From Malacoraja senta (taxonomy: Eukaryota), in contig CM075991.1 in NCBI GenBank assembly GCA_038087875.1, positions 3,472,001 to 3,536,000 on the forward strand: DNA of 64,000 nt. The letters are read 5' to 3'. Both the position numbers and the translations under genes were made by a program. This document shows positions 27,525-64,000 of this stretch, in pieces. Position 1 is the first letter of the stretch. Each line of letters begins with the position of its first letter. The notes beneath the pieces were generated by a model. That model was not told the DNA's origin, did not search any database, and saw only the letters and a program-made list of their open reading frames with translations.

Positions 27525-27527
<3 letters not shown>

Positions 27528-27572: not shown

Positions 27573-27574
<2 letters not shown>

Positions 27575-31747: not shown

Positions 31748-31779
31748 AGAAGGGAAGTAATTATGCCAGCTAAACTATG

Positions 31780-34079: not shown

Positions 34080-34245
34080 GCTCACCCTCTCGCACCTCTC
34101 TCCCTCTCGCACCTCTCTCTCTCTTGCATCTGTCTCTCTCTCTCTCACCTCTCTCTCTCTCTCCCTCTCTCCCACACACCTCTCCCTCTCCCACACACCT
34201 CTCCCTTTCTCTCTCTCACACACACACACACCTCTTTCTCGCATA

Positions 34246-34291
<46 letters not shown>

Positions 34292-34460
34292 CTCTCACAC
34301 ACACACACACCTCTTTCTCACACACTCTCACACACTCTCTCTCTCTCACACAGACACACTCTCTCTCTCTCACACACACACACCTCTTTCTCACACTCTC
34401 TCTCACACACACACTCTCTCTCTCACACACACACACACACCTCGCTCTCTCTTACATACA
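34080..34460. repeat. Compound (CT)n/(CA)n microsatellite
   Basis: About 380 bp of interleaved CT and CA runs following a Rex1-type 3' fragment (~33790-34070). Confidence 0.95.
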
Positions 34461-36782: not shown

Positions 36783-37294
36783 TCGGGTTGCCAACTTTCT
36801 CGCTCCCAAATAAGGGACAAAAGGTCCAAATAGGGGACAAATTCCAGACAGCAATTCGTTGACCGACTCGGCTGCGGCTGGGTGAATGATGAGTTGGTCC
36901 GGGTGCTGGACTGCACACAAAGACCAGCCGGCGGGCCAGCTGAGGAGTTTTTGTCCGGGCCGCGCGACGTCGCGCGCCCCATCCAACTCGAGAACCGATG
37001 ATCGGCCATGAGAAGGAGGGGTGGTGGTGGTGGTGGTGTCGGCGGTAAGCGAAGGTCCGAAGGTCAGATAGCTGGCCGGGCTGCCGACCGACGGGGCCAC
37101 AGGCGAGGCACTGCTGCTGCACTCCATGGGCTGCACTACGTCGGGACGGGTGAGGCGGGGCCGGACGCAGCGACAGTCCCCTCGACACGAGTAGTAGCAG
37201 TCAAATATGGGACAAAGCTGGTCCCGTATGGGACAAACCAATTTAGCCCAATATACGGGATGTCCTTGCTAATACGGGACAGTTGGCAACCCAA
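36783..37294 (-). mobile_element. Non-autonomous hAT MITE, family A (second copy)
   Basis: Reverse-complement homologue of 739-1240. TIRs TCGGGTTGCCAAC...GTTGGCAACCCAA; degenerate 8-bp TSD AGTGCATC/TGTACATC. A third, partial copy is at ~41744-41878. Confidence 0.85.
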
Positions 37295-41956: not shown

Positions 41957-42651
41957 CAGGGGCGGAAAACCCGGGGGGCCAGGGGGGACACGCCCCCCCT
42001 CTGTTTTGAGAGGTGGGGGACATCCCCCCCAAGTTTTTGTAATCCGGATTTTAAAACCCGGTGAAATCTCCGCTTTCCGCGAGACAGTGGGGGTGGGACT
42101 GATGATCGAGGGCGCCGATTGGACGAGAGAGACGTCGGTCAGCAGGCAATGGGGGCGGGACATGATAATTCAGCTCGACGATTGGAGGAGAAGGGGGGAG
42201 GGGGGTGGGACTGAGGATAGAGCGCGGTGATTGGAGGAGGGAGACGTGGCACAGACCGATCCCGGCCGGGTCTCTGGCGCTGTCCCGAGTGCCCTCCACG
42301 GGTGGCCAGAGACGTCAGGAGTCAGACGGGAGCGGTGCCCCTAGGCCCACAGCCAGCGCAGAGAAGCAGCGCAAAACCCAGCTCACTCTGCCTGTCCTGC
42401 CAGGTGAACCTACAGCCCTTCCTGGACTTGCGGGAAATATGGCCAGCGCGGAGAAGCAGCGCTGGTGTCCCGTCAGTCCAGGCAGGGCTGTAGTTAACCC
42501 GGTGAGACAGGCAGAGTTGAGCTGCATTTAGCGCTGGATTGAGCCTCCGAAGCCTCGCACGTGTGTGTGTGAGTGTGCGCATGCGCGCACGGCCGCCAAA
42601 GAATTGTGTCCCCCGGTCCCCTCCATATTTTGATAGCGATTTCCGTGCCTG
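41957..42651 (+). mobile_element. Non-autonomous hAT-like element, family B (long variant)
   Basis: TIRs CAGGGGCGGAAA...TTTCCGTGCCTG; both ends homologous to 13501-13826; different interior; TSD not clean. Confidence 0.7.
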
Positions 42652-43742
42652 CATGTCTCTGCACCTGATGTGTAGGAAAGAACTGCAGATGCTGTTTTAA
42701 GTCGGTAGACACAAAATGCTGGAGTAATGTCTGAAGAAGGGTCTCGACCAGAAACGTCACCCATTCCTTCTCTCCAGAGATGCTGCCTGCCCCACTGAGT
42801 TACTCCAGCATTTTGTGTCTACCTTCAATATGAAGGAGATGTTCTCGAAAACTGAAGCATGTTTCAGCAGTGGGGCCCTGAGATGACCAAACCCAGCGAG
42901 CTATAAAGGAAGCCATTAAATGTAAATAAATTGGCATCAAGGAAATTCCAGTTCAACTGGTCTCCTGGGAACATTTTAACTTCCCTCCTCCGTCCACTTC
43001 CGAAGATAATGAGCATTACTTATTGATCCCACAGTGTCGACCAGAGACACTGAAGCTCACAGAGAGGTCTAACCTGGTGCACTAAGGGGGCGTGGAGGTT
43101 TATCACTGTAAATATATATATCCTTGCCCTGGGCAGAGGACAGGGAACTCCTGATCTGTCACCCCAACCCTCAGGTTTAACTTGATAAGTTCATCGGTTA
43201 TACGAGCAGGATTCAGCCCATCAGGTGAATCGAGGACCAGAGGACATAGGTTTATAGAGAAGGGGAAAAGATTTGATAGGAATCTGAGGGGTAATTTTTT
43301 CACACAAACAGTGCTGGGTGTATGGAACAAGCTGCCAGAGGTGGTAGTTGAGGCAGTTGAGACTATCCCAACGTTTAAGAAGCAGTTAGATAGGTACATG
43401 GATAGGACAGGTTTGGAGGGATATGGACCAAACGTGGGCAGGTGGGACAAGTGTAGCTGGGACATGTTGGCCGGAGTGGGCAAATCGGGCCGAAGGGCCT
43501 GTTTTCACACAGTATCACTCTATGACTGTGAGTCTACTTCGCCATTCACCATGGCTGATCTATTTTTCCCTCTCGACCCCATTCTTCTGCCTTCTCCCCA
43601 TAACCCCTGACACCCTTACGAATGAAGAACCTACCTATCTCCCGTTTTACCCATTGACTTGGCCTCCACAGCCATCCACAGATTCACCACCCTCTGACTA
43701 AAGTAATTCTTCCTCGTCTCCTTTCTGAAGGTATATCCTTAA

Positions 43743-44081
43743 AGGGCCTGTCCCACTGTACAAGGTAATTCAAGAGTTCTCCCGAGTTTTCCCTGATTCA
43801 AACTCGGAGAATGTCCGTAGCGGGACCGTAGGAGTTCGTGGATGTCTCGTAGCGGCTCGTACGAGTAACGGTAGGTACTCGGGAAATACGGTAAACTCAT
43901 GACGTTTTTTCAACTGTGAAAAATGTCCACGAGTAAAAAAAAATGGTTACTTTTTTACTCGTACGAGCCGTTACGAGACATCCACGAACTCCTACGGACC
44001 CGCTATGGACATTCTCCGAGTTCGAATCAGGGGAAAACTCGAGAGAACTCTTGAATTACCTCGTACAGTGGGACAGGCCCT
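43743..44081. mobile_element. Long-TIR MITE (putative Harbinger-like) inserted in a CR1 fragment
   Basis: ~126-bp inverted arms (43743-43868 vs 43955-44081) starting AGGGCCTGTCCCACTGTAC; flanked by TAA/TTA. The host CR1 continues on both sides. Confidence 0.85.
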
Positions 44082-45986
44082 TTAGATCTGAGGCTGTGCC
44101 CTCTGGTCCTAGACTCTCCCACTAGTGGATAGATCCTCTCCACATCCACTCTATCCAGGCCCCCCCCCCCCCCCCATCTTTCTAAGCTCGTTTAGGTTTA
44201 TTGTCACGTGTACCAAGGTACAATCTTCTAATCAGATCAGATAACACTATACATAAATACAATCAAGTCAAACTCAATACATAGAGCAAAGGGGTAGATA
44301 AAGAGTGCAGAATATATGTCTCAGCATGGTAGTGCACAAGTTCCAGAGACTATATGTGCAATGGAATAGAGGTGAATCGGACAGTACCCTAACTTATGGA
44401 AAGACTGTTCGGAAGCCTAATAACAGAGAGGAAGAAGCTGTTCCTGAGCCTGGTGGTTTCGAGCTTCTGCATCTTCTGCCAGGTTGGAGTGGGTAGAAGA
44501 AGCAGTGATCAAAGTGGGACAAGTCTTTGATGATGTTTAGGAAGGAACTGCAGATGCTGGTTTGAACCAACGATAGACATAAAAAGCTGGAGTAACTCAG
44601 CGTCTCTGGTGAAAAGGAATAGGTGACGTTTCGGGTCGAGACCCTTCTGACTGAGAGTCAGGGGAAGGGAAACGAGAGATATAGACTGTGATGTAGAGAG
44701 GTATAGAACAAATGAATGAAAGATATACAAAAAAGTAACGATGATAAAGGAAGCAGGCCATTGTTAGCTGTGGGCTAGGTGAAAACGGGTTACAGACAAT
44801 GAAACTCACCAGGATGACATTGAACTAGTACAAGGACTGGGGTGGTTGAGGGACGGAGAGAGAGGGGATGCAAGGGTTGCTTGAAGATAGAGAAATCAAT
44901 ATTCATACCGCTGGGCTGTAAGCTGCCCAAGCGAAATATGAGGAACTGTTCCTCCAATTTGTGTTTGGCATTTGGATTTGTGACTCACTAACAGGATATC
45001 CTTATGACCCATGAGAAGATGGTGTTAGGCTGTGGCCCTAAACCACATGAGCAGTTGTGGTCTGTCAGGATGTAGTTACTGGTCTTCTCAGTTTTCAACT
45101 GGCACCACTTCCCTCCCCTATAGTTTTGTTTAGATACAGCGCGATTACCGAGTCCGAGCCGATCAGCGACCAGCGATCCCCGCACGCTAACACTATCCTG
45201 CACACACGAGGGACAATTTACAATTTTACCAAATTACCAATTGAACTACAAACCTGCACGTCTTTGGAGTGTGGGGGGGGGGGGGGGGAGGGGGGGAATC
45301 TAGAGCACCCGGGGAAAACCCACGCGGTCACGGGGAGAGCGCACAAACTCCGTAGAAACAGCACTCATGGTCAGGATCGGACCTGGGTCTCTGGTGCTGT
45401 ATGGCAGCAACCTTACTGCTACGCCACTCTACCACCCCTACTACACACCCCTACTACACCCCCCTGTCCTGCCCCAATTCAGTTCAAGTCTCAAGGATAG
45501 ACTCAAAATGGTGGAATAACTCAGCGGGGTCAGGCAGCATCTCTGGTGAAAAAGGATGGGTGACACTAAGGGCCACGGATAGACCAGATACGTCCCCATA
45601 TCTTTTTTTTTCCAGGGATGCTGCCTGACCCGCTGAGTTATTTCAGCACTTTGTGTCCACCAGTATCTGCAGTTCTTTCTTTCTGCGATCGGTCAGGTCT
45701 CCATGGTTTTTGGCAAGCCTGACTATTTTTTAGTCGATCTCACAGCTCATTAGTTTTTTTCAGGTCCCTGCATTATGAAACGCTCTATTTTTGAGTCTGC
45801 ACTCAATATCACTTGCCTGCACAAAGCCATTGGCAGCCGGCTCAAGTGCAAGGTCGACTGTTTTCATTTAGTTTTGTTTATTGTCACGTGTACCGAGGTA
45901 CAGTGAAAAACTTTTTTGTTGCCTGCTAACCAGTCAGCAGAAAGACAATGCATGATTACAATCGATCCATTTACAGTGTATAGATG

Positions 45987-46150
45987 TATAGGAAGGAACT
46001 GCAGATGCTGGTTTAAACCGAAGATAGACACAAAATGCTGGAGTAGCTCAGCGGGACAGGCAGCATCAGACTGACCCAAAACATCACCCATTCCTTCCCT
46101 CCAGAGATGCTGCCTGTCCTGCTGAGTTACTCCAGCATTTTATGTCAATG
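45987..46150. mobile_element. Penelope pLTR fold-back insertion inside a Rex1-type 3' UTR
   Basis: Inverted pLTR arms with a 15-bp TSD TACAGTGTATAGATG (45972-45986, 46151-46165). The adjacent pLTR piece 46182-46272 has its own 13-bp TSD GATAAGGGAATAA. Confidence 0.8.
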
Positions 46151-47589
46151 TACAGTGTATAGATGCATGATAAGGGAATAAGTTAGACAAAATGCTGGAG
46201 AAACTCAGCGGGTGAGGCAGCATCTATGAAGCGAAGGAAATAGGCGACGCTTCGGGTCAAGACCCTTCCCCAGATAAGGGAATAATGTTTAGTGCAAGGT
46301 AAAGCCAGCAAAGTCCGATCAAGGGTAGTCCGAGGGTCAAAGATGTTAGTAGTAGTTCACCAAAGAGGTAGATCTCTGTGTAAATGCCACCAACATCTGT
46401 CCCCACCTCTGTCTCTGGCCTCCATCTCCTTGATGCCTGATCTTGTGTCCACTGTTGAGCTCTGGGGAGGTGATGGTTGGGATAGGAGACGAGCGGGACA
46501 CCTTCAAGTGGAAAAAAAGCAAACCTCCAGCAAACCTGTGGATGAGTAAGAAGCCGTTTGCAATCTGCAGACTCTGCCATTTGCCGTGCTTTTTGCAAGC
46601 AACGGTAGATGAATTGTGTTCCCATTATCGCGCTGCTTCGGAAATGCTGTGCCTTGGAAGACGACATTCTGCCACTTAGCAATCATTGCAATTGAAATAG
46701 ATGGAGCAGAAACTGCCGTTTGTCATTTCCACAATGGGCCGGAATGGGCAAGTCGTGTTCCTCCAGTTTCCCAGTTCCTGGTCAGTTGCCGTGAAGGTCA
46801 AAGCGCATCAAGGTGCTCGGTCAGAGGCTTCCTTCACTGCGAGGAAGCTTTCTGTTTCCAGTAGCTTTGTCGGAATCAGGTTCCAGTTTGTCATCGAAGA
46901 TAGACACAAAATGCTGGAGTAAGGTAATGGGTTTGGTGAAGGGCGAAAAGGGTAGAAGGACCCCAGTGGACTGGTGGGTGTCCAGCCTTGACTAACGTCA
47001 TCCTCCCTTCCCAGTTCCGATGAAGAGTCCTAGATCTGAAACTTTAACTGTGTCTCACTCCACAGATGCTGCCTTACCTGCTGAGTGTTTCAAGTATCTA
47101 CTCTATCCTTATTCTTCTCTATTCTTTATCCCTATTAAATCAGCTGCCTGCCAAATGGCGGAGATAATAGTCAACTGATCTGCCGTGATACATTTTGCTC
47201 TCTCCTTTGGAGTCACCGTTACCCTGCTTTGTATAGGACATGGCTCTGAACGACATAATCTGGGGGCGTTAGTTTTGTCTTTTTGCACTATTATTGTTTG
47301 TTTTGTATGTGTGTGTGTGTGGATGTATATAGAAACTTTTTCACCCAGAGAGTTGTGAATCTGTGGAATTCTCTGCCATAGAAGGCAGTGGGGGTAAATT
47401 CACTGGATGTTTTCAAGAGAGAGTTAGATTTAGCTCTTAGGGCTAATGGAATCAGGGGAGATGGGGAGAAATCAGGAACGGGGTACTGATTTTGGATGAT
47501 CAGCCATGATCATGTTGAATGGCAGTGCTGGCTCGAAGGGGCGAATGGCCTACTCCTGCACCTATTGTCTATGTTTCTATGTTTCCAGT

Positions 47590-48195
47590 CTCCTGTACAT
47601 GGGCGAGACCAAGCATAGACCCGGCTACCGTTTCGCTGAACACGCTGAAAATGTTTCGCTGAGAACGCTTGGTCCTCCAAGGCCTACTCGACCTCCCGTT
47701 TGCCAACCATTGTAACTCCCCTTCCCATTCCCACACTGACCTCTCCGTCCTGAGCCTCCTCCATTGCCAGGGTGAGGCCACACGCAAACTGGAGGAACAG
47801 CACCTCATACTTCGCTCGGGTAGCTTACACCCCAACGGTATGAACATTGAATTCTCTAATTATAGGTGACTTACCCAAGCACTCCTCTCCCCATCTCCCA
47901 TTGCTTTACTCCCCCTTGCCCCACTCCCCCCCCCCCCACCCCACTAAAAGTAATTTAACCAGTTCCACAGTTCACAGCTATGTATCCATCTTGGGATCAC
48001 ATCGTTCCTAACAAACAATAGGCCTATCAGGGAACCTCCCTATCTGAGGTCATCTGTTGCCGGCACTAATTTATCCTAGTCCTTTCTTGCTTCCAGTTCC
48101 TCCCATCCCTACAATCAGTCTGAAGAAGGATCCCGACCTGAAAAGTCAAACCTATCCATGTTCTCCACAGATGCTGCCTGACCCGCTGAGTTATA
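47590..48195 (+). mobile_element. Penelope-like element 3' remnant
   Basis: LLYMGETKHRPGYRFAEH...HSHTDLSVLSLLHCQGEATRKLEEQHLILRSGSLHPNGMNIEFSNYR, then a pLTR with CTGAAGAAGG...GAAA. Confidence 0.85.
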
Positions 48196-48869
48196 ACCAT
48201 ATAACCATAAACCATAACAGCACGGAAACAGGCCATCTCGGCCCTTCAAGTCCGTGCCGAACATTTTTTAAATTTTTTTTTTTAATTAAAAATAAATACT
48301 TCCCCCTAGTCCCATCTACCTGCACTCAGACCATAACCCTCCATTCCTTTCCCGTCCATATACCCATCCAATCTATTTTTAAAGGATAACATCGAACCCT
48401 GCCTCCACCACTTCCACTGGAAGCTCATTCCACACAGCTACCACTCTCTGAGTAAAGAAGTTCCCCCTAATGTTCCCCCTAAACTTCTGTCCCTTAATTC
48501 TCAAGTCATGTCCCCTTGTTTGAATCTTCCCTACTCTCAATGGGAAAAGCTTATCCACGTCCACTCTGTCTAAGCCGCTCATAATTTTAAAGACCTCTAT
48601 CAAGTCCTTCTGCGCTCCAAAGAATAAAGACCTAACTTGTTCAACCTTTCTCTGTAACTTAGTTGCTGAAACCTAGGCAACATTCTAGTAAATCTCCTCT
48701 GTACCTCTCTCTATTTTGTTGACATCCTTCCTATAATTAGGCGACCAAAATTGTACATCATACTCCAGAATTGGCATCCAGAATTGGCCCCCCAAAGTTA
48801 CTCCAGCACTTTGTGCCTCTCTGCCAGTTTCAAACCTTGCTCATCTCCTTTGTCTCTTTCCCTGAACAG

Positions 48870-48974
48870 ATGAAGTCTGCGGGCTCTGTGGATCAGGATT
48901 TGTTCACAGACACCTACTGCAAGGTCTGCAGCGCTCAGCTGATCTCCGAGTCGCAGCGAGTGGCCCATTATGAG
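48870..48974 (+). CDS. ZMAT4: Zinc finger matrin-type protein 4, first conserved coding exon (N-terminal part of zinc finger 1)
   Basis: Polypyrimidine tract + CAG acceptor directly before the ATG. 35 codons [35 protein letters not shown] match the recalled vertebrate ZMAT4 N-terminus ([34 protein letters not shown]). Phase-0 donor GAG|GTAAGA. Confidence 0.93.
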
Positions 48975-49038
48975 GTAAGATTCTGACTCGCAATATAATC
49001 CATTCCATGGCAGAAAATGCGGTAAACACTTGGCATAG

Positions 49039-49675
49039 CCGCACAGTGGTGCAGCGGTAGAGTTGCTGCCTCACAGCACCAGAGTCCCAGGTTCTACGCT
49101 GACCACAGGTGCTGCCTGTGTGGAGTTTGTACGTTCTCCCTGTGACCGCGTGGGTTTCCTCTGGGTGCTCCGGTTTCCTCCCACACCCAAAGACGTAACA
49201 GTTTGTAGGTTAAGTGGCTCTGTAAATGATCCCTCGTGTGTAGGACAGTGCCAGTTAATGGAGTGATCGTTGGTCAACATGTACTCTTTCCACTTTATAT
49301 CCTCTAAACGAAACTAAATTAAACAAGACACTCAGCATGTCAGGCAGTACCTGTGGAGAGAGAACGTGAGGTGTGTTTAGTTTAGAGATACAGCGTGGAA
49401 ACAGGCCCTTCGGCCCACCAAGTCTGTACCGACCATGATCACCGCACACTAACACTATCCTACACACACCAGTAACAATTTTTACATTTACCAGCCAATT
49501 AACCTACAGACCTGTGCGTCTTTGGAGCGTGGGAGGAAACCGAAGATCTCGGAGAAAACCCAAGCAGGTCATGGGGAGAAGGTACAAATTCCGTACAGAC
49601 AGCACCCATGGTCAGGATTGAACCCGGATCTCTGGCGCTGTGAGGCAGCTGCTCTACCGCTGCGCCACCGTGCCG
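49039..49675. mobile_element. Tail-to-tail inverted pair of HE1-like SINEs (49039-49325 +, 49375-49675 -)
   Basis: Both copies show head, central domain and tail, in opposite orientations ~50 bp apart. Confidence 0.8.
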
Positions 49676-50562
49676 ATGTCTCTGGTATTTCCATTGATGT
49701 ATCTGGCTTCCAGCATTTGCTGTTATTATTCCTGATCTCCAACATCTGCCATTATGATTTAAATTTAATTTCATTTCGCACGTCTTCAGGTTACATTGTA
49801 AACCATATTTTACTAGCAAGCTTTGGCAAGAGGTTGACAATAATTTTTTATCAGCTTTGAATATTTCTACTCAATATAAGGGCTTGCAGCTCAGGCTTGA
49901 GCTTGTCAGAAATGTTGAATCCATCACTCTCATTCCAAAACATCACCCATTCCTTCTCTCCAGAGATGCTGCCTGAAATGCTCAGTTACTCCAGCATTTT
50001 GTGGTCCATCTGTGGTGTAAACCAGCACGGCCAGTTCCTTGATTATACTTTACTTCAGACTTTAATGATACAAAGATAGGAGGAGGTGCTGGCAGTGTAG
50101 AGAAAGCAGGGACTCTGCGGAAGGACTTGGACAGGTTGGGAGAATGGGCAAAGAAGTGGCAGATGGAACGCTGCGTGGGGAAGAGATGAGGAGGAATTTC
50201 TTTAGTCAGAAGGTGGTTAATCTGTGGAACTCATTGCCAGAGAAGGCTGTGGAGGCCAACTCAATGGATGTTTTTAAGGCAGAGATTGTATGGGTGTCAG
50301 GGGATACGGGAAGAAGGCAGGAGAATGGGGTTGAGAGGGAAAGATAGATCAGCCATGATTAAATGGTGGAGTAGATTTGATATGTAATGGCCGCCTCGCC
50401 AACAGTCTGTCTTGTTCCTTCTCTGTTTTTATTATTTGAAGTATGTCTTGAATGTTTGTTTTTATGTCTCTTGGTATGTTTTATGTGGAGGGTGCGGGTG
50501 GGGGGTGGAGGGATCGGGGGAAACCTTTTTCAGTCACTTAACTCGACGGAGATGCGATTATT

Positions 50563-50762
50563 NNNNNNNNNNNNNNNNNNNNNNNNNNNNNNNNNNNNNN
50601 NNNNNNNNNNNNNNNNNNNNNNNNNNNNNNNNNNNNNNNNNNNNNNNNNNNNNNNNNNNNNNNNNNNNNNNNNNNNNNNNNNNNNNNNNNNNNNNNNNNN
50701 NNNNNNNNNNNNNNNNNNNNNNNNNNNNNNNNNNNNNNNNNNNNNNNNNNNNNNNNNNNNNN
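50563..50762. other. Assembly gap (200 N)
   Basis: Run of exactly 200 N; separates the + strand and - strand ZMAT4 exons. Confidence 0.99.
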
Positions 50763-50889
50763 TGGGTGCTGTCTGTACGGAGTTTGTATGTTCTCGCTGT
50801 GACCATGTGGGTTTTCTGCAGGGTGCTCCAGTTTGCTTCCACACTCCAAAGATGTGCTGGTTTGTCGGTTAATTGGCTTCTGTCAATTT

Positions 50890-51255
50890 ACAGTATAGAT
50901 ACATGACAAGGGAATAACATGTAGTGCAAGGTAAAGCCAGCGAAGCCTGATCAAGGATAGTCCGAGGAGCACCAAAGAGGTAGATAGTAGTTCAGCACTG
51001 CTCTCTGGTCATGGTAGGATGGTTCAGTTGCCTGATAACAGCTGGGAAGAATCTGTCCCTGAATCTGGAGGTGTGAGTATTCACACTTCTCTACCTTTTG
51101 CTTATGGGAGAGGGGGGAAGAGGGAGTGGCCAGGGTGCGACGTCCTTGATTATGCTGCTGGCCTTGCCGAGGCACCGTGAGGTATAAATGGAGTCACTAG
51201 AAGGGAGGTTGGTTTGTGCGATGGTCTGGGCTGCGTCCACAATTCGCTGCAATTT
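50890..51255 (-). mobile_element. Rex1/Babar-type LINE 3' fragment
   Basis: Minus strand CLGKASSIIKD..HPGHSL / RFRDRFFPAVIRQLN-like residues, then the 3' UTR that also occurs alone at ~30450-30630, 32110-32215, 37381-37497 and 45866-45985. Confidence 0.75.
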
Positions 51256-53765
51256 CTCGCGTGCCTGAATGATTTTGCTCTGTGGAAGATTAATTGCAAT
51301 AGATACATCGCCAGATCATCATTACAAAACATCAGCTTGAAAGGGCTCTCACAAGTACAGAGTCACTCATTGTTTGCGTTAAAGCCTCACTCTTCCATTA
51401 CCTTGCTGGATGGTGAGTATCAGTTGCGAATCCTGCAAACGGATACCTGGCTGGTGACAGTAAATGAGCGAGGAAGAAGTGTCCTCAAGTACTCTGCTGT
51501 TGTCACACTTCAGTGGAGTGAAACATGCCTTGCATCAATGTGTAAGAAGGAACTGCAGATGCTGGTTTAAACCGAAGATAGACACAAAAAGCTGGAGTAA
51601 CTCAGCGGGACAGGCAGCATCTCTGGAAAGAAGGAATGGGGCATCTCATATTTCACTTGGTAGACAAAAGTGCTGTAGAAACCCAGCGGGTGCAGCAGCA
51701 TCTATGGAGTGAAGGAAATAGGCAACGTTTCGGGCCAAAACCCTTCTTCAGACTTCTTCTTCACTTGGGCAGCTTACAGGCCAGTGGTATGAATATTGAT
51801 TTCTCTCACTTCAGGTAGCCCCGGCCAAAGGTACCAGAGCAAGCACTCTATGATCTTTCCCTCTCTCTCTATTTATCCCACCCCCACCCAAGTCACACCA
51901 GCTTCTCGTTTTCACCCTCCAAACAGCAAACAATGGCCTTTATCATCATGTTGTTAAAGAAGGAACTGCAGATGCTGGAAAATCGAAGGTACACAAAAAT
52001 GCTGGAGAAACTCAGCAGGTGCAGCAGCATCTATGGAGCGAATTCATCATTACTTGTTTGCATATCTTTCATTCATTGTTCTTTATCTCTCCACATCACC
52101 GTCTATATCTCTCGTTTCCCTTATCCCATACCAGTCTGAAGAAGGGTCTCGACCCAAAACGTCACCCATTCCTTCCCTCCAGAGACGCTGCGTGTCCCGC
52201 TGAGTTACTCCAGCATTTTGTATCAAACCGCAGTCAGACCTGCTGGGTCACAGCTCTGACAACCTGGATTGAATCCTGGCCTTGGGTGCTGTCCGTGTGG
52301 AGTCTGTACGTTCTTCCTGTGACCATGTGGGTTTCTCCTGGGAACTCTAGTTTTCTCCCACGTCCCAAAGGAGAGCGGGTTGGTGGGCTAATTTGCCCTT
52401 TGTAACTCACCTGGTGTGCAGGTGATGGGATGGAAAAGGATCATAGAGTCACACAGCATGGAGACAGGATGATCAACCATGATCATATTGAACACCCCTG
52501 ACTTGAAGATAGATCGAAAATGCCAGAGTAACTCAGCGGGGCAGGCAGCATCTCTGGAGAGAAGGAATGGGTGACGTTTCGGGTCAAGACCCTTCTTCAA
52601 ACGATATTGAATTCAGTAGCTGTCGGATCACTCAAGAGTCCATAGTGTTTTATTGTCACAGGTCCCAGATGGAAGAATGAAACTACTTACAGCCGCACAA
52701 CAGAATATGTAAACATAGTACACTGTAAACAATATAATAAACAATATAATAAACATGTTCCCAATGTTGGGGGAGTCCAGAACCAGGGGCCACAGTTTAA
52801 GAATAAGGAGTAAGCCATTTAGAACCGAGACGAGTAAACACTTTTTCTCACCGAGAGTGGTGAGTCTGTGGAATTCTCTGCGTCAGAGTGCGGTGGAGGC
52901 CGGTTCTCTGGATACTTTCAAGAGAGAGCTAGATAGGGCTCTTAAAGATAGCGGAGTCAGGCGATATGGGGAGAAGGCAAGAATGGGGTACCGTTTGGGG
53001 ATGATCAGCCATGATCACATTGAATGGTGGTGCTGGCTCAAAGAGCGGAATGACCTACTGCACCTATTGTCTATTGAGAAAAAAAAGTTCAGTGTGTGTA
53101 TATACAGATACACATACTCACATATAAACATGTATTTTATATAAATATATATATATATATGCATGCATGCACACTTGTATACATACATGCACACACATAT
53201 ATATACTGTACATACATACATATGTAAATATATACACACACACACACATAAAAAACAAACAAACAATAATAGTGCAATAATGACAATCATAGTCTATTGT
53301 AGTTCAGAGTTTATTTGAGGTTGTAGTATTTAATAGCCTGATGGCTGTAGGGAAGAAGCTGTTCCTGAACCTGGACGTTACAGTTTTCAGGCTCCTGTAC
53401 CTTCTTCCCGATGGTGGGGGTGAAATGAGTGTGTGGCCAGGGTGGTGTGGGTCTCTGATGGTGATGCTCTCATAACCCCCTCCAAATATTTGTCACAATC
53501 CTCCGATAAAGCATATCAAAGGAATGTCCGTTACATCTGAACAAGGTTTACCAAATTCGCGATGATATTGATGCTCCTCGGAGATCCTGCATCACTTTCC
53601 CACATGTACCGTGGAGGGTTTAATCTTCCATTTTATTGTTATTTTCAGTGCTGAGTAAATAAGTGTGTTGAATGATTTCCACTTGCTTGACAGTGCGGAA
53701 TTGTATGCCGAGGGAGGGGACATTTCAAATGGCACGTCTTTGTGATTGTTCTCAATTGTGCTAAG

Positions 53766-54592
53766 TCTTCTTCTTACGCCCCCTTCGGTCATGGCTGACC
53801 ATGGGTGTCTCCAGGGTTGGAGGATGCCAGTGCGTGAATGTGTTTAACGTGGGGAGACCGCCACCACACGGTACATGACAGATCTGGGTCAGACAAGAGA
53901 CAATAGACAATATACAATAGGTGCAGGAGTAGGCCATTCGGCCCTTCGAGCCAGCACCGCCATTCAATGTGATCATGGCTGATCATCCCCAATCAGTACC
54001 CCGTTCCTGCCTTCTCCCCATATCCCCTGACTCCGCTATTTTTAAGAGCCCTATCTAGCTCTCTCTTGAAAGCATTCAGAGAACCTGCCTCCACCGCCCT
54101 CTGAGGCAGAGAATTCCACAGACTCACCACTCTCTGTGAGAAAAAGTGTTTCCTCATCTCCGTTCTAAATGGCTTACTCCTTATTCCTAAACTGTGGCCC
54201 CTGGTTCTGGACTCCCCCAACATCGGGAACTTGTTTCCTGCCTCTAGCGTGTCCAAGCCATTAACAATCTTATATGTTTCAATGAGAAACCCACTCATTC
54301 TTCTAAACTCCAGGATCCAGTGGCATGGAGTCCAAGACGACCGGAGACCCTTTTCTGCTGCAGCCTTCATCCGCCTTCCCAGCCATTGTGATGCTCCACT
54401 AAGGTCAGCCATCATCCTCCGCCTGTTCCACCGTTGAGGTCTTGGTTGGATTGCTCTTTGTCGGAGACCTCCGACTTGACCTTACCGCCATGGGTGACCC
54501 TACCAGGAGCTTAGCTCCAGAAGGCATCTCTCTCAGGATCTCAGGACCACACAAGCTTCTCCACCACGACAAGGTGACAATCCACGGAGAAG
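53766..54592 (-). mobile_element. Short bipartite RTE-like non-autonomous element interrupted by a CR1 3' fragment (~53895-54310)
   Basis: Minus 5' end CTTCTCCGTGGATTGTCACCTTGTCGTGGTGGAGAAGCTTGTG...GATCCTGAGAG resembles RTE/Expander 5' UTRs. Minus 3' end has a (GAA)n tail. No ORF between them. Confidence 0.6.
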
Positions 54593-57424
54593 TGGATGTG
54601 GACAGTGAATTAACAAACACACCAGTATTTCTCAATTTCTATTCATAGGCGGCATTGCACACACAGATTGCATGAATCATAATTGAATTTAATAAAACTC
54701 CTTTCCAGAATTGTGGTTTCTGATATAGTTAGTCATAGAGTGATACAGCGTGGAAACAGGCCCTTCGGCCCAACTTGCCCACACTAGTCAACATACCCCA
54801 GCTACACTAGTCCCACCTGCTGGTGTTTAGCCCATCTCCCTCCAAACCTGTCCTATGCATGAACCTATCTAAGCATTTCTTAAACATTGGGATAGTCCCA
54901 GCCTCAACTAGCTCCTCTGCAAGCTTGTTCCATACACCCACCACCTCTTGTGGGTGAGAGATTGCAACCGTCAAGGTCAGAATTAATCCTGGGTTGGTGG
55001 AGCTGAGAGACAGCAGCACTACCTGCTGTGCACACGTTTCCAGCAGTGTACGACTATAATAACAGATGAAGTGTTTCAGATGGACAGGTACCAGATTTTG
55101 AATACAGCGGATGTAAGGAAGGTCAAAATGTAAGCCATGTAGACCATTACATTTAAATAATGAACTGGAGATGCTGTTTAATGCCCCATCAGTAGCCTAA
55201 ACATGGAAACAAGGGACTGGTTTACACAAAAGGACACCAAGTGCTGGAGTAACTCAGCAGGTCAGGCAGCATCTCTGGAGAACATAGACAGGTGATGTTT
55301 CGGGTCGAGATCCTTCTTCACCTAACCATGTTCTCCAGAGATGCTGCCTGACCTGCTGGGTTACCCCAGCATCTTGTGTCCAGTTTAGATAGGGATGAAA
55401 TAGTTAGAGGCAGTTCTAAATACTTATTTAATTTGGAATACGACTGAGTAAGAAAATACAGCGGTAAGATCAAAGCAAAAGCATTTTGTTTTGTAAGCCT
55501 TCTGAACCTTTTTGCCAAAGGGAAAAAAAATGTGCATTATGTTTAAGAAACAAATAGAGAGGAAACCAAAAGGGACAAACCAAACGAGATTAATGAACTA
55601 AAACGGCAGGACTAATAAAAGCTGAGGAAATGTTTCATGTTAAATTTAGAGAGAAAATTAAACCTGGAGCAAAATTATTGAAAAATGCCAAAATACTTTT
55701 TCTGGCTAAAATTAAAATTCATCCTCACAGGTTATAAATCAATTTAAATAAAAGATAAATTAACAAAATCAAAAGTTGACTATCAGGTTTATTTTAAAAA
55801 TCACTGAATGGAAATAGAAGAAGACATTAAAAAATGAAATGAGACAAATGGCGAAGTATACAAAAACAAAATTAAATGAGGCTATCAATTATTTTAATGA
55901 ATTTAAGTGGATCTGATATGATTTCTCATTATATCATGAATATCTAGACTACACAAAACACAAGGCTATTATTCAAAATGATTAGTTCAATTAGAAAAAG
56001 TTTATTGGATTTAAGCTAATGATCCAATACATTAAAATTTGATGTGTAGGAAGGAACTGCAGAAGCTGGTTTACACCGAAGATAGACGTAAAATGCTGGA
56101 GTAACTCTGCAGGACAGGCAGCATCTCTGCAGAGAAATGGAACGGGTGACGTTTTGGCCGTTCTTTTGAGAAGTTCTTCAGCTGATCTTGTTCTGAAGAT
56201 CTAAAGAAGGGTCTCGACCTCAAAAGTCGCCCATTCCATCTCTCCAGAGACGCTGCCTGTCCCGCTGAGTTCCTCCAGCATTTTGTATCGATCTTCAGTG
56301 TAAACCAGCGTCTGCGGTTCCTTCCGCCCGCCCATGGCCTTTCACATTGAAATTGGGTCTAGTTTGCCAATGAATAATTTCATCTTTCGTCCAAAACAGG
56401 TAGCTGGCATGTAATGTATGCCATGCCTTTTACAACCTCTCAAGAAGAGGAGGAATAGCAATAGGAATACTTTAGTGCCACATGTGATTAAGCACAGTGA
56501 GATTCTTTGCTTGCATACACAACGTATACAAATAGCAGCCACCTACGGCACTGACAAAGTTACAAAGCAAGCCGTCCCCCACTTTTGTTCCCCCATGTTA
56601 GGTCCCCATTGTCCTTTGTCCCTCCCCCCCCCCCCTTGTCCATTGTTCTCCCCCCGCCCACGACGGCCCCCCCACGTCGGGACCTCCATTGTTCTTCCCC
56701 TCCCCCCTCACAACTTCCCCCACTCTCTCATCGATCCACGAGGCAACGCTGCCGCCACGAGGCCCCATCATCGCGGGTCTTCACCGCTGCCAGTCCACAG
56801 CCGCGGCCCGTCGGGCAACCTTGGGGGTAGTTGTGCTCATTACAATAACTACCTTTAAAAGACACTTGGACCGGTGCATGGATAGAAAAGGTTTGGAGCG
56901 ATGTGGACTTAATGGGACTAGCTTTCATGGGGCATCTTGGTCAGCATGGATGAGATGGGCCGAAGGGCCTGTTTCCGTGCTGTATGACTCTAGTACATCT
57001 CACTGGTGCAGATTACCCCTTTCCTGCTGACAATGCTTTTGAGAGAGGAAGGGAACGCTCAGTTCCAGGAAGAAAGGAGAAGAAAGGGAAGCACAGTTCC
57101 ATATTCAACAAACCAGCCTGGTGGCGCAGCAGTCGAAAATCAAATTCGTAAAACACAAGGTGCGTGTACAAATATTCTGCTTTATATTACAGTAAAGCAA
57201 ATGGTAAATGCTTGTACGTTCTCCCTGTGACCGCGTGGGTTTTCTCTGGGCGCTCCGGTTTCCTCCCACACTCCAAAGACGTGCAGGTTGGTAGGTTAAT
57301 TGGCTTTGGTAAAAATTAGCGTGTAGGATAGTGCTGGGGGTGATCGCTGGTCAGTGTGGACTCGGTGGGCCGAAGGGCCTGTTTCCGCACTGTATCTCTA
57401 AACTAAACCAAGTTAAACACTAGG

Positions 57425-57607
57425 GAAGGTACACAAAAATGCTGGAGAAACTCAGCGGGTGCAGCAGCATCTATGGAGCGAAGGAAATAGGCAACGTTTC
57501 GGCCCGAAACGTTGCCTATTTCCTTCGCTCCATAGATGCTGCTGCACCCGTTGAGTTTCTCCAGCATTTTTGTGTACCTTCGCTTTTCCAGCATCTGCAG
57601 TTCCTTC
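57425..57607. mobile_element. Penelope pLTR-derived fold-back palindrome insertion
   Basis: ~157-bp hairpin 57425-57581 centred on TTTCGGCCCGAAA; 14-bp flanking duplication TTAAACACTAGGGA (57413-57426, 57608-57621). Confidence 0.8.
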
Positions 57608-57800
57608 TTAAACACTAGGGATCAATTTACTTACTGACTTGTTTAAAGCCACGATCAAATGGTAGAGTAGACTCATTGGGCCAAATGGCCTGATTCTGCC
57701 CCTATCTTGTGGACCTTTTCTAAGCCCCTCATGATTTTACATATGGACAGCGCCCGGCGTCCCATGATCCAGGGAAAGAAGGTTTATCTGAGAGCTCTAC

Positions 57801-58013
57801 CTCTAAGGGCCTCGGGGTCCAGTGTCTGGCCGAGCTGCTCCATTAAGTCGGCTCGCGCTGCGTTCTTCTTGTGCTTTTTGCCGTCGTAGTGTTGTTGGGC
57901 CATCATGGGGTTATTAAACCAGGCATTACACAGCTGACAGAATCGGGCCGAGTCTCTCCTCTGTCTCGGGGGGTTCGTTATCGTACTGCGACTCGAAGGC
58001 AGCTGCTTCGGTT
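57801..58013 (-). CDS. ZMAT4: Zinc finger matrin-type protein 4, internal exon (third zinc finger)
   Basis: Acceptor ctgttcttctgttgcag|, 213 bp, phase 1-1, donor G|GTAGAG. Translates ..[70 protein letters not shown](G), matching recalled ZMAT4 [44 protein letters not shown]. Not listed in the ORF track. Confidence 0.92.
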
Positions 58014-58649
58014 CTGCAACAGAAGAACAGGTTTGTAGGTCAATTGGCTACAATGTAAATTGTCCCCGTGACCGCGTGGGTTTCCTACGAGAAACGTTGG
58101 TTTCCTCCCACACTCCAAAGACGTACAGGTTAACTGGTTAATTGGCTTGGGTACAAGTGTCAGTTGTCGCCCAGCGTGTGTAGGGTGGCGCTAATGTACG
58201 GGGATCGCTGGTCGGCACGGGCTCGGAGGGCCGAAGGGCCTGTTTGCGTGCTGTATCTCGAAAACAAAAACAGAGAGATGTGAATTAAAAGAGGAAAATT
58301 ACTCCTCGTGCTTGGAACTATGATTGACCACTCAATACTCGCGGGATTCCTCAATCAGACATTATACTAATCGCTAAAAAATCACACACACACACACACA
58401 AAGCGCTGGAGTAACTCAGTTGGTCAGGCAACATGTCTGGAGGGCACGGATAGTTGACGTTTCAGATTGGGCAATTTTTGCATGTTTTATTATTTCTCAT
58501 TTTATCATTTTACTTTTAGATTTGAGATCAAACGTGGAAACAGGCCCTTCAGCCCACCGAGTCCATGCTGACCGGTGATCACCTGTACACTAGTTCTACC
58601 CTGCACACGAGTGACAATTTACAGAAGCCAATTAACTTCAGTATTTCAG

Positions 58650-59515
58650 TATTAACTTCATTGTCATTTCACTGAGTACTTACATACACAGAAGAAACGA
58701 ATAATTGTTTCTCATCTGTTCCTGTCAGTGCAGTTAATAAAAACAGAATAAATACATACAACTTTAAAATTAACATATCTAAAATAGACCTAAAATTGAG
58801 CTAAAAACAGACATACAGACCGAACAGTGACTTTACCTTGACAGGTGCCTAGCTGTCAAAGTTTGGGCAAGGTTAGATGTGTGGGTGTATAATGTATGGG
58901 GAGGGGACACAGTCCGTTAACCAGTTTTATTGCCTGTGGGAAGAAGCTGTGTAGCATCCAGCTGGTTCTGCAGCTGATACTCCTGTACCTCTTCCCAGAT
59001 GGCAGAATGGAGAAGATGTGGTGTGATGGGTGATAAGGGTCCTTAATAATGGAGATGGCTCTGCGGATGCTGCGCTTCTGATAGATCTCGAACAGGAAAC
59101 GGAGTGGAGCACCAATGATCCTACTGGCTGTCTTCACTATCCTGTTTAGCTAACCCTGTTCGTAAGCCTTGTAGCTCCCAAACCAGTAAGCTCTCGATGG
59201 TGCCCCTGGAGAAGGTCGTTAGGTGAACAGTGGGGAGAACTGCTTTTCTTAGTCTCCGGAGGGGTTGGAGCCGCTGCTGTGCTCTTTTGATGACTGCTGT
59301 GGTGTTGGTCGTTGAGGTCAGGTCGTCCGCCAGGTGAAGTCCCAGGAACTTCACACTGCTGACCCTCTCCACAGCAGCACCATCAATATGCAGCGGTGTG
59401 TGATGGTGTTTGCCAGCCCTCCGGAATTCGATCACCATCTCCTTTGTCTTTTCCACGTTGAGGGTTAGGTTGTGAGATCTGCGCCACTCTGTAAGCTGTC
59501 CACCTCCATCCTGTA
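58650..59515 (-). mobile_element. Rex1/Babar-type LINE 3' fragment
   Basis: KTKEMVIEFRR...VERVSSVKFLGLHL; IIKDPYHPSHHIFSILPSGKRYRSI...SFFPQAIKLVN; ends in an AATGAAGTTAATACTG tail. Confidence 0.85.
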
Positions 59516-59766
59516 TGCCGACATTGTTACTTACAAACCTGTACGTCTTTGGAGCGTGGGAGGAAATTGGAGCGCCCGGAGAAAACCCACCAAGTCACGG
59601 AGAAAATGGACAAACTCCGTACAGACAGCACCCGTAGTCAGAATCGAACCCGGTTCTCCGGCGCTGTGAGGCAGCAACTCTACCGCTGCACCACTGTGCC
59701 ACACAAAACGTCATTAAAACATCATTGATTTTAAATGACAAAATATCACAGAACATGGAACAGTGC

Positions 59767-60282
59767 GGGTGAGGCAGCATCTCAGGAGAGAAGGAATGGG
59801 TGACATTTCGGGTCGAGACCCTTCTTCAGACTGATGTCAGGGGAGGGGGTGGGACAAAGATACCTGAGCTAACCTACCTGATCTCCCGGTGGCTCAGCAT
59901 TTCAACTCCCATTCCCAATCTGACCTTTCTGTCCTGGGCCTCCTCCATTGCCAGAGTGAGGCCCAGCGCAAATTGGAGGAACAGCACCTCATATTTTGCT
60001 TGGGTAGTTTACACCCCAGCGATATGAACATTGACTTCTCTAACTTCAGACAGCCCTCGCTTTCTCTCTCCATCCCCTCCCCCTTCCCAGTTCGCCCATT
60101 AGCCTTACCGACACCGACTACATTCTATCCCACCCCCTCCCCTGACATCAGTCTGAAGAAGGGTCTCGACCCGAAAAGTCGCCCATTCCCTCTCTCCAGA
60201 GATGCTGCCTCACCCGCCGAGTTACACGAGCATTTTGTGTCTACCTTCGATTTAAACCAGCATCTGCAGTTCTTTCTTACAC
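59767..60282 (+). mobile_element. Penelope-like element remnant: inverted 5' pLTR + GIY-YIG C-terminus + 3' pLTR
   Basis: Inverted pLTR piece 59767-59857, then DLPVAQHFNS...RKLEEQHLIFCLGSLHPSDMNIDFSNFR, then a direct pLTR with CTGAAGAAGGGTCTCGACCCGAAA (60153-60176). Confidence 0.85.
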
Positions 60283-60367
60283 ATAGAACAGTGCAGCACA
60301 GGAACAGGCCCTTCGGCCCACAATGTTTGTGCTGGACATGATGCCAAGTTCTCATCCACCCATACAT

Positions 60368-63300
60368 AATAGTAAGATTAAAGGAGAACTTACCAGTTTG
60401 AAGTTTGATCTTTATTTTATGAGGAGTTACGTTGGTGATTACGTGAAGAAGTCCCGCCAGAGCGCATGCGCGTCAATCTTCAAAGCAGCGGTATGAAATC
60501 ACAGATAACAGAATATTTGAAGTAACATAGTAAGATCAGCAACATGAGAACTACCATATGACCTTTATGAGAGAGTTGGGCGTGGTGGGCACGTAATCAC
60601 CAACGTAATTCCTCATAAAATAAGGATCAAACTTCAAACTGGTAAGTTCTCGTTTAATCTTACTATTTTACTTCGGAGTCACGTGAGTGATTCCGTGAAG
60701 AGTTCAAAGCTCTGTGATTTTATCCCACAGATTCAAATCCCGGCTTCTCACTGCATTGATTGACTTCGGATGAGAAACAATCAATAATGCGTTAAACATG
60801 AAATTGAATATCATACAGTAACAATTGATTTGAAGAATGAAAACAAACAGTAACCCCTCTATCCCAGGGGAAACTTAAACAGAACTTAATACTGAATTTG
60901 CAAACAGCCCCCGATCGGCAATCGGCCGATGGTAAAAATTGTTGAAAAAACAATTCATTTGACCACCCGGCGCCTGTAAGAATATGATCGATGGGAACAT
61001 CCATCGCCCTGGCCGCCGACATTGCTGCTGCACTAGTGGAATGAGATGTATACACGTCAGTGTTAATACCTGCCTGAATCAACACTTGCTTTAACCACCT
61101 TGAGATAGCACTGACACTCTCTTGTGTGGTTTCTTGTAACTGATAAACAATCCTGTTTCCACATTTCTTAAGGTCCTTGTAGCTTCAATATAATGTAATA
61201 AATGTGTCCTTACACATAAACATGGATCAGTAGGCTATGCTGAAAACACAATTTAAAAAACCTGTGACATCTGTTTGAGCAGGTCGTAAATATATAACAT
61301 AACATTCTCTTCAGCCTCTTCCATCCTGTCTAGCTGAAGCTTTTGCCAAATCTGCACTCGCTATGCTGAACCAATGCCATGAGCATGACCACCTTCATGG
61401 TGAGTTTGGCCAATTCAGAGACGTGACAGGAACCCACTGTCGAAGCATCTTGAGGACCACACTTACATCCCAGATCGCCATATACCTGGGTTTAGGAGGT
61501 TTGGAGTTGAAATTCCTTTCATCAATCGAGCTATGAGAGGATGAAAACCCAATAGGATCTTTTCCTGACCCCATCAAAACATACGAGGACAAAGCACTTA
61601 AAGCTGTATTAATGGTGCTATAACTGAGCCCCTCATCATAGTAGAGTGTCGACAGGAACTCTAAAACATCCACAATACCTGCAGTACTATAGCCAATATT
61701 ATTTTGTACACAATATTGCTCCCATTTTTTTACATAAGTAATATACCGCTTTTGAGTACTCTTTCTCCAGGCTACAGTGAGCATGTCCACCGTTCGCCCA
61801 GACATTCCTCGCCCCAGGTATGGCCTTCTTAAAACCTGCAAATTAACAAGTCAATACGGTCACATAACGGATGACTTTCCCGTGTTAGCGGATGCTCCAG
61901 TAAATTCCTACGCTTGGGAACCACCAAAGGAGGTTGGATCGCTAACTGTAACATCAAAGGGAACCATGCTTGAGTTGGCCAATTAGGTATTACAAGCACC
62001 CCTGAAGTGGCATCCTGCTTGATTTTTTGCAGACTCCGACCTATGAGGCAAAATGGTGGGAAAATATATTAAAAACATACCACCCCAATGTAGCGAGAAA
62101 GCATCAATTGCAACTGCCCCCTGGTCTGGTTCCCATGAAACATATTTAGGCAGCTGGTGGTTAAACCTCGATGCAAAACAAATCGATATCTGGCATTCAT
62201 ATATAAGTACTATATTATTGAACACCTCCTGGTTCAACATCCAATCTGTGTTGTCATGGAACTTTTGTGACCTGGCGTCTGCTACTATGTTGAATCTACC
62301 TGGTGGATAAATAGCTGAAAGCCAAATATCTTTATCAATACACCAGGCCCAAATTTGATTAGCCAATCTGTCACAAGATACCGACTTGATTCCACCCATG
62401 TGATTAATATATATGCTACTGCCGTAGTATTGTCAATCTGAAACTGAACATGCAGGTTACCTTTGTTAGAGCAATAAGCCTTATCCATAAAAAGCTCCTA
62501 AACGCTCTAAATAGTTAATTCCCCATGTCTGTAGAAGCGATGCATCTTGCTCAGTCCATCTGCCTCCACAGCTGAAACTCGTATCCGTGGCACCCCACCC
62601 GGGTGCACTGACATTCATCTGCAAAATCATGGAAGGCTGCTCAAGCACTACTTTGCTCGAACTAGTGGACACATGCTGAATCCACCATTGCAAATCAGAA
62701 ACAGCCTCTGCTGATAACTGCATGGGTCTATTATAATGACCCGAATGTATCCTTAGTGCCTCCATTAGCTTGATACAGCTGTCAATTAGCTCTACCCTTT
62801 CTTCCTGGGCAGAGTCACTACCATTGAATCAATTGTGACCCAAATAGTCAGGTGTTAATTTGGATTTCTATGGATGAATAATGTCCAATCTTTGAAAAAT
62901 GGATTTAACAACTACCACCGGTTACTTCAGCTGTTCTCTTGGATACCCCTGTAATCAAGATATCATCGAGGTAAGCCATGAGCACCTGACCCTGGCCTCT
63001 CAGCATGCATAGTATATATTTTAACAATTTTGTGCCATAGTTGATCCATCCAGGTGAATTTCAAATATCTTCTATCCTGCAAATGAACAGACACTGAGTA
63101 ATATGTATCTTTAAGCTCTATAGTTGCCATATAGCATCCACTGGACCCAGTTGCTTGACAGTGACAAATGTTTCCATCTTAAAATGTCTATATTGCATCT
63201 CCCATCCTTTTTTGGCCTGGGAAAAAATATTAGACACAAATTGATGGGGTAGGTGAACCGACTTTCCAATTACACCTTTCAAGCGCAGCCTGAACCTTCA

Positions 63301-64000
63301 TCTGTTCTGTTAATGAAAACTGAAAAGTTCTCCCAGGAACATGCTGAATGTGCAAATCACAATTTGGATTGAACTCCATTCGAAATCCTTGAATAACACT
63401 CAGTTTCAACAGATCTGAGGTAATTTTCTTCCATTCATCCCGGAACAGATGTAATGTACCCCCAGATTTTAGTTGTGTCACATTTGATATGTTCACCTGA
63501 GAACCAGTCCCACCTACCTCCTTGGTACCTGGTGGATCCCGTTGTCCCCGACCCCTGGCGGGAAGCCCCACGTATGACCGTGTTCCCGCTGCAGAATGCC
63601 ACCTGCGCATCTGCATTGCCGGCCGACTTGTTCCTGGTCCAGACCAATCTGTCCCTCGTTTGCAGGGGTACTTTCTTTTTTGGAAACTTGCCGACCGCCA
63701 GTGGCTTGATCAAGCCCACCGTCTTTGCCTCGTCATCCATCTACTTGACACGCTTGGCGAGGTCCTCTCCGAAGAGTATGTTGGCCGGCTGTATGTTGCT
63801 GGGCTGGCAGAGTACTGCAAACTTGGGATTAATGGTGGGTTGAATGGAACTTTCCCTGAGACAATTTATCTAAAAATGGGCACTACAAAGCAACCCTAGT
63901 ACCTCTTGCTGCGTCTCCGACAGATGCCCGCCATCCACCGTTCTAGCGAACGCCGTGATTCCTGAGCCAAGTAGTTTCAGGATTCTCTGCAGCTTCATCT
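60368..64000 (-). mobile_element. DIRS1-type tyrosine-recombinase retrotransposon, decayed; continues beyond the window
   Basis: Minus-strand domain order: gag-like end (>63400); RT (HFKMETF, MATIELKDTYYSV, AYLDDILI); RNase H (DLQWW, GWGA, INYLE, QIDNTTAVAYI, NIVADARS); methyltransferase-like (FASRFNHQLPKYVSW...DAFSLHW); YR N-terminus (STQKRYITYVKKW...LSYSTINTALSALS); YR C-terminus (HSTSAAAMS...AGWS). Terminal inverted repeat 60368-60445/60590-60667. Many frameshifts. Confidence 0.92.
60792..61841 (-). pseudogene. Tyrosine recombinase of the DIRS element (disrupted)
   Basis: Integrase SAM-like N-domain in ORF 61395-61841 and catalytic C-domain in ORF 60792-61085. HSTR is degraded to HSTS; the catalytic-Tyr segment FYHRP is out of frame by one T in a T run. 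Confidence 0.85.

What the first reader, a model, noticed from the sequence alone, without database searches (positions are those of the whole stretch)
48870..58013. ZMAT4 exons on opposite strands, split by a 200-N gap
Seen: a ZMAT4 5' coding exon on + (48870-48974) and a downstream ZMAT4 zinc-finger-3 exon on - (57801-58013). Both have intact canonical splice sites and open frames, and a gap at 50563-50762 lies between them. I could not find the intervening exons (SRKHASKV..., KCCTLCNM...) or the last zinc-finger exon (..IEQYHAH..GSKH) on either strand in the window. Inference: the contig right of the gap is most likely scaffolded upside-down. Less likely are a real intragenic inversion, a tail-to-tail ZMAT4 duplicate or trans-splicing. 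As assembled, the gene model would be broken or mis-annotated.
Basis: partly seen in the sequence, partly recalled or inferred. Interest (0 to 1): 0.72.

Follow-up and report, generated by a model that had tools for sequence, protein, structure and literature searches.

The report
Likely flipped contig splits skate ZMAT4
Intact exons of one skate ZMAT4 gene point in opposite directions on either side of a 200-N assembly gap, most likely because the contig on the right was scaffolded upside-down, which would be an ordinary assembly error rather than biology.

Summary
ZMAT4 exons lie at 48870-48974 (+) and 57801-58013 (-), both with AG/GT ends and open frames, with a 200-N gap between them. The three match thorny-skate (Amblyraja) ZMAT4 at 29/29, 35/35 and 69/70 residues. 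Trees put the two zinc-finger exons with ZMAT4, away from the second cartilaginous-fish paralogue. The two middle exons and the last finger exon are absent from both strands of the window. Both gaps in the window are exactly 200 N, the one complete contig is 34.4 kb, and the strand switch falls in the stretch that holds the gap. A single flipped contig explains all of this, and short contigs are the documented weak point of Hi-C scaffolding (about 90%). No genome or read-level test was available, so this is inferred, not shown. A real inversion (about 5%) stays open, partly because relatives have isoforms that skip the minus-strand exon. A duplicate (3%) or trans-splicing (1%) is less likely. 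It matters for curation, not for biology.

The parts
26682..26768 (+).
   Evidence: 29/29 identical to P0003, E 5.8e-17; splice donor
48870..48974 (+). ZMAT4 exon 'B' (residues 30-64, first part of zinc finger 1), phase 0 to phase 0
   Evidence: 35/35 identical to P0003, 25/35 to the Amblyraja paralogue; tree; Pfam zf-met E 4.9e-4, just under the curated cut-off
50563..50762 (.). 200-N gap; the strand switch falls in the 8.8-kb stretch that holds it
50763..50888 (+). Right edge of the gap starts inside a 5'-truncated copy of an abundant short repeat (SINE-like; label from my own knowledge). The last 203 bases left of the gap match nothing else in the window.
   Evidence: 15 matches at this edge; left edge
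57801..58013 (-). ZMAT4 exon 'E' (residues 146-216, zinc finger 3), 213 nt, phase 1 to phase 1; skipped whole in isoform models of two relatives
   Evidence: 69/70 identical to P0003, 43/70 to the paralogue; tree; skipping isoforms
15980..16179 (.). Second 200-N gap; its right edge also starts inside a repeat
16180..50562 (+). The only complete contig in the window (34,383 bp), carrying exons A and B
50763..64000 (-). Contig inferred to be upside-down (at least 13.2 kb; far end outside the window), carrying exon E
   Evidence: orientation error is inference

Best explanation
The three exons are intact parts of one skate ZMAT4 gene, and the contig right of the gap at 50563-50762 was most likely scaffolded in the wrong orientation, so the real gene would be collinear and spliced normally. 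Shown: exon identity, strands, phases, the gap, and the absence of the other exons from the window. Inferred: the gap is a fixed-size placeholder from long-range (probably Hi-C) scaffolding; the flipped contig would carry exons D and C on the minus strand beyond 64000; a further gap and the last exons on the plus strand would follow. Less likely forms of the same error (the 34-kb contig misplaced and flipped, or C and D missing from the assembly) are included in this confidence.
For: Both finger exons group with Amblyraja/Rhinoraja ZMAT4, with the paralogue split off at 100/100 and 100/99 support. No decay: 133 of 134 residues match P0003, and the one difference is the residue that the five other batoid genera carry; end branch 0. 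2 of 2 gaps are exactly 200 N, 34.4 kb apart, and both right edges start inside repeats. Exon B ends 1.6 kb before the gap with no exon C; exon E ends 7.0 kb from it with no exon F. One flip accounts for this tail-to-tail layout. In 181 of 181 fetched homologues of 139 aa or more, the blocks found are in normal order; 125 have all five. P0003 is a RefSeq model on an 18.4-Mb record and is also held by Logan; that such models are built from same-strand exons is my own knowledge. Passages: Hi-C inversions are common when contigs are short (PMC6719893); local orientation error 4.3% for 3D-DNA on human short-read contigs, worse for shorter contigs, and such errors hinder gene prediction (PMC7672694); a scaffolded, curated assembly marks all 54 gaps with 200 Ns (PMC12134992).
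Against: Nothing here tests the join itself: no genome is held, no reads were laid, and the far end of the contig is outside the window. How the assembly was scaffolded is not known. Exon E is a frame-preserving cassette that isoform models of Amblyraja and Scyliorhinus skip, so a real inversion of E alone need not destroy the gene. Strand skew and repeat orientation gave no independent signal. The error rates cited come from other tools and species.
Confidence: 0.9

Rival explanations
1. A real inversion inside ZMAT4 (fixed, or carried on one haplotype) flipped exon E, alone or with C and D. Inverted repeats at the breakpoints would have broken the contigs there. Flipping E alone would force the exon-skipped, three-finger isoform; flipping C-D-E would join phase 0 to phase 1 and shift the frame.
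For: Exon E is symmetrical (213 nt, phase 1-1) and skipped in P0269 (Amblyraja X2) and P0132 (Scyliorhinus X3). The window is rich in repeats in both orientations (1205 self-matches).
Against: E keeps its frame and both splice sites and has no derived residue, so the event would have to be recent. For E alone, exons C and D would have to lie in the gap. The breakpoint would have to coincide with a placeholder gap. No long inverted pair flanks the gap inside the window.
Confidence: 0.05
2. A recent tail-to-tail duplication: exons A and B belong to one ZMAT4 copy on plus, exon E to a second copy on minus, and the 3' ends of both are lost in the gap.
For: The layout is tail-to-tail, and the gap has unknown true size.
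Against: Exons C, D, E, F and the last exon of one copy and the last exons of the other would all have to be missing in one gap, in a gene whose one measurable intron is 22.1 kb. No exon occurs twice in the window, and the two contigs share only repeat-type matches, none at 90% identity or better longer than 187 bp. No second close copy showed among the skate proteins listed.
Confidence: 0.03
3. The arrangement is real and the mRNA is made by trans-splicing between a plus-strand and a minus-strand transcript, as at Drosophila mod(mdg4).
For: Intact exons of one gene on opposite strands.
Against: The strand switch sits at an unsequenced gap. B (phase 0) cannot join E (phase 1) in frame, so C and D are needed, and the last exons would need a further switch. 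Relatives have ordinary gene models.
Confidence: 0.01
4. The minus-strand exon belongs to the other cartilaginous-fish paralogue (named 'zinc finger protein' by the sources), lying tail-to-tail with ZMAT4.
For: Such a paralogue exists in skates and sharks.
Against: Exon E matches the nine ZMAT4-group proteins at 58-69 of 70 residues and the seven paralogue-group proteins at 43-46 of 70; the tree separates them at 100/100.
Confidence: 0.01

Closest known systems
ZMAT4 (zinc finger matrin-type protein 4), Amblyraja radiata XP_032869673.1 (P0003)
   Same: Three exons give 133 of 134 identical residues, with exon ends that fit the block boundaries seen in isoform models.
   Different: In this window exon E is on the opposite strand to A and B, and exons C, D, F and the last exon are absent.
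Locally misoriented contig in a Hi-C scaffold (PMC7672694, PMC6719893; passages read)
   Same: Strand switch at a fixed-size gap, short contig nearby, gene otherwise intact.
   Different: The scaffolding method and the length of the suspect contig are unknown; the join was not tested with reads.
Drosophila mod(mdg4) trans-spliced locus (PMC13490949, PMC12692577; listing and start of abstract only)
   Same: Superficially, exons of one protein that cannot be read from one transcript as assembled (that some mod(mdg4) exons lie on the opposite strand is recalled).
   Different: There the layout is in finished sequence with alternative 3' exons under their own promoters; here one internal exon sits across a gap and its phase does not fit the upstream exon.

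Membership tests
ZMAT4 orthologue | Best matches and tree placement with ZMAT4 rather than a paralogue | tested here: met
   (exons B and E); exon A by identity only
ZMAT4 orthologue | Matrin/JAZ-type C2H2 zinc fingers | tested here: met
   Exon E: PF12171 E 1.9e-9, above cut-off; exon B: partial finger, 20.8 bits against a cut-off of 21.2
ZMAT4 orthologue | Full set of exons, in order on one strand | tested here: inconclusive
   Not so within the window; the rest of the scaffold is not held
ZMAT4 orthologue | Conserved neighbouring genes | not testable with these tools
   No other host gene found among 240 of 242 open frames of 75 aa or more scanned with Pfam
Misoriented contig (scaffolding error) | Strand switch coincides with an assembly gap | tested here: met
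   Gap 50563-50762 lies between exon B (+) and exon E (-)
Misoriented contig (scaffolding error) | Gaps of fixed placeholder size and short contigs | tested here: met
   2 of 2 gaps are 200 N; the one complete contig is 34.4 kb
Misoriented contig (scaffolding error) | No reads support the join; reads support the flipped join | not testable with these tools
   No read-level result was obtained
Misoriented contig (scaffolding error) | A second gap beyond which the gene returns to the plus strand | not testable with these tools
   Would lie beyond 64000; no genome held
mod(mdg4)-type trans-splicing | Opposite-strand exons in continuous, verified sequence | tested here: inconclusive
   A gap separates them
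mod(mdg4)-type trans-splicing | The two visible exons can join in frame | tested here: not met
   B ends in phase 0, E starts in phase 1
mod(mdg4)-type trans-splicing | Separate transcripts and chimeric mRNA shown by RNA reads | not testable with these tools
   No RNA reads were laid

The most novel reading that the evidence does not exclude
A real inversion has turned the middle of skate ZMAT4 around, and the gene survives by trans-splicing between transcripts of opposite strands, a vertebrate counterpart of mod(mdg4). A milder form (about 5%, interest about 0.45) is a real inversion that silences the cassette exon for zinc finger 3.
Probability: 0.01. Interest if true: 0.85.

Novelty: not a real feature. 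Interest (0 to 1): 0.1.

Why it matters
If the best reading holds, it matters only for curation: ZMAT4 would be split or missed by annotation in this assembly and could be miscalled as lost or rearranged in skate comparisons, and neighbouring short contigs deserve the same check. It is also a useful control pattern for this scan: exons of one gene on opposite strands across a fixed-size gap should be presumed an assembly error until reads span the gap. If reads confirmed the present orientation, it would be a natural intragenic inversion in a conserved vertebrate gene and worth transcript-level study.

Tried and rejected
Whole-scaffold tblastn: no genome is held. No reads were laid, which leaves the true join and the transcript structure open. 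Overlap or inverted duplication of contig ends: none found in the window. Strand skew by segment and orientation of eight repeat queries by segment: small counts, no consistent sign, uninformative. Split or partial skate gene models: none recognisable among the 120 of 127 short hits listed; the one 98% hit (P0257) is only the strongly conserved exon-D block with unrelated flanks. X-chromosome idea (half coverage in males giving short contigs): ZMAT4 was not named in the three papers searched for it; the shark X is described as homologous to part of human chromosome 12 (PMC10620051), whereas I recall human ZMAT4 on chromosome 8; the two supplements of PMC11406177 gave no hit even for the control gene ZBTB39, and bioRxiv supplements are closed, so the idea is unsupported rather than excluded. 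Literature: 0 papers for ZMAT4+skate+genome, 0 for ZMAT4+shark, 0 for one over-narrow Hi-C query; two searches listed nothing bearing on this locus (listings only). Earlier findings of the scan: four look-ups, all empty. Structure prediction was not used, since it cannot bear on contig orientation.

Full report
Observation. Window 48870-48974 (+) is a 105-nt exon with AG before and GT after, reading 35 codons from ATG and ending in phase 0. Window 57801-58013 (-) is a 213-nt exon with AG and GT ends, phase 1 at both ends, encoding a JAZ/matrin-type zinc finger (Pfam PF12171, E 1.9e-9). Between them lies a run of exactly 200 N at 50563-50762; a second run of exactly 200 N lies at 15980-16179. 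The contig between the two gaps is 34,383 bp.

Identity. The minus-strand exon's best match is ZMAT4 of the thorny skate Amblyraja radiata (P0003, XP_032869673.1), so the window comes from a skate or close kin. I call them A, B and E. Identity to P0003 is 29/29, 35/35 and 69/70. At the one differing site the window has the residue found in Rhinoraja, Pristis, Hypanus, Mobula and Hemitrygon. Blocks C (65-94), D (95-145) and F (217-254) have no match of their own on either strand; their best hits are cross-matches to the two finger exons or chance hits. All 140 homologues then in hand hit the same three places only.

One gene, not two paralogues. Cartilaginous fishes have a second, similar gene. 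Exon E matches nine ZMAT4-group proteins at 58-69 of 70 residues and seven paralogue-group proteins at 43-46; exon B matches the Amblyraja pair at 35 and 25 of 35. Trees of 22 rows each put both exons with Amblyraja and Rhinoraja ZMAT4, end branch 0, with the paralogue group split off at 100/100 and 100/99.

Surroundings. Of 242 open frames of 75 aa or more, 240 were scanned with Pfam; besides exon E, the hits were two reverse-transcriptase remnants, one PF09004 match and one integrase SAM-like domain. No other host gene gives an orientation marker. The right edge of each gap starts inside a repeat that has many copies in the window. The last 203 bases left of the second gap match nothing else in the window, and the two contigs share only repeat-type matches, so there is no overlap or inverted haplotig within the window. 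Strand skew and repeat orientation gave no usable signal.

Most likely explanation. The layout is A, B pointing right, gap, E pointing left. B ends 1.6 kb before the gap without C; E ends 7.0 kb from the gap without F; the 6 kb upstream of E hold no D. One operation, turning the right contig round, restores a normal gene, and predicts D and C on minus beyond 64000, another gap, and the last exons on plus. The exons show no decay, which fits a working gene. In 181 of 181 fetched homologues of 139 aa or more (paralogues included) the blocks found are in normal order, and 125 have all five; the Amblyraja protein is a RefSeq model on an 18.4-Mb record. Passages of two method papers state that Hi-C orientation errors are common for short contigs (PMC6719893), with a local rate of 4.3% for 3D-DNA on human short-read contigs and harm to gene prediction (PMC7672694). 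One passage shows 200 N used for all 54 gaps of a scaffolded, curated assembly (PMC12134992), and another uses 200 N to model YaHS joins (10.64898/2026.10.15.759518); that 200 N is a common placeholder for gaps of unknown size is otherwise my own knowledge. Shown: exons, strands, phases, gaps, paralogue identity. Inferred: that the gap is a scaffolding join and that the contig is flipped. I put this at 0.9, including variants such as a misplaced left contig.

What speaks against, or stays open. The join itself was not tested: no genome is held and no reads were laid. Runs that hold part of the stretch exist but their shares are not evidence here. One result raises the real-inversion rival a little: exon E is frame-preserving, and isoform models of Amblyraja (P0269) and Scyliorhinus canicula (P0132) skip it whole (the third protein flagged of 181, P0127, lacks only the end of E). 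An inversion of E alone would thus leave an in-frame three-finger product. It would, however, need C and D hidden in the gap, a breakpoint at a placeholder gap, and a recent date, since E is unchanged. An inversion of C-D-E would join phase 0 to phase 1. I give real inversion 0.05, a tail-to-tail duplicate 0.03, trans-splicing 0.01 (B and E cannot join in frame) and the paralogue reading 0.01.

Comparison with what is known. The gene is an ordinary ZMAT4 orthologue. The arrangement works like a locally misoriented contig; two defining features were met and two could not be tested. It resembles mod(mdg4) only on the surface (PMC13490949 and PMC12692577, listing and start of abstract). Searches for ZMAT4 with skate or shark found 0 papers in the held library, which does not cover most subscription journals. 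A side idea that the locus is X-linked found no support (supplements that I could not see, or that held no gene lists, may bear on it). Four look-ups of earlier findings were empty.

Verdict. Real exons, correctly spotted; the opposite-strand layout is most likely an assembly error. Interest 0.1.

Noticed in passing
window 61398-62432 (-), probably running to 64000: Broken remains with an integrase N-terminal SAM-like domain (PF13495, E 1.9e-6) and a weak PCIF1-type match (PF12237, E 0.0033, below cut-off). This pairing suggests a DIRS-like tyrosine-recombinase retrotransposon; the label is from my own knowledge and was not tested.
   Followed up: partly
window 10527-11228 (-) and 39338-39775 (+): Reverse-transcriptase remnants (PF00078, E 1.1e-16 and 5.4e-13), probably decayed LINEs.
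   Followed up: no
window 59124-59594 (-): PF09004 (ALKBH8_N) match, E 2.3e-12; from recall this domain often marks LINE-derived sequence, not an ALKBH8 gene.
   Followed up: no
window 17840-17990, 57422-57584 and 16180-16225: Near-perfect palindromic repeats of 150-160 bp (97-98% self-complementary); the 34-kb contig begins inside one arm of such an element. Also a longer imperfect palindrome at 43740-44084.
   Followed up: no
proteins P0009, P0017, P0038, P0042, P0048, P0114, P0142: A second ZMAT4-like gene in sharks, rays and chimaera, mostly named 'zinc finger protein', that forms its own well-supported group outside the one holding bony-vertebrate ZMAT4 (P0114 was not in the trees).
   Followed up: partly
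window 26598-26681 (+): Sequence just upstream of exon A aligns with the N-terminal extension of whale-shark ZMAT4 models (55% over 58 residues including exon A) but has an in-frame stop here; probably conserved 5' UTR.
   Followed up: no
window 3437-3854 and 34081-34476: Tandem arrays (units of 52-64 bp; CT/CA microsatellite block).
   Followed up: no
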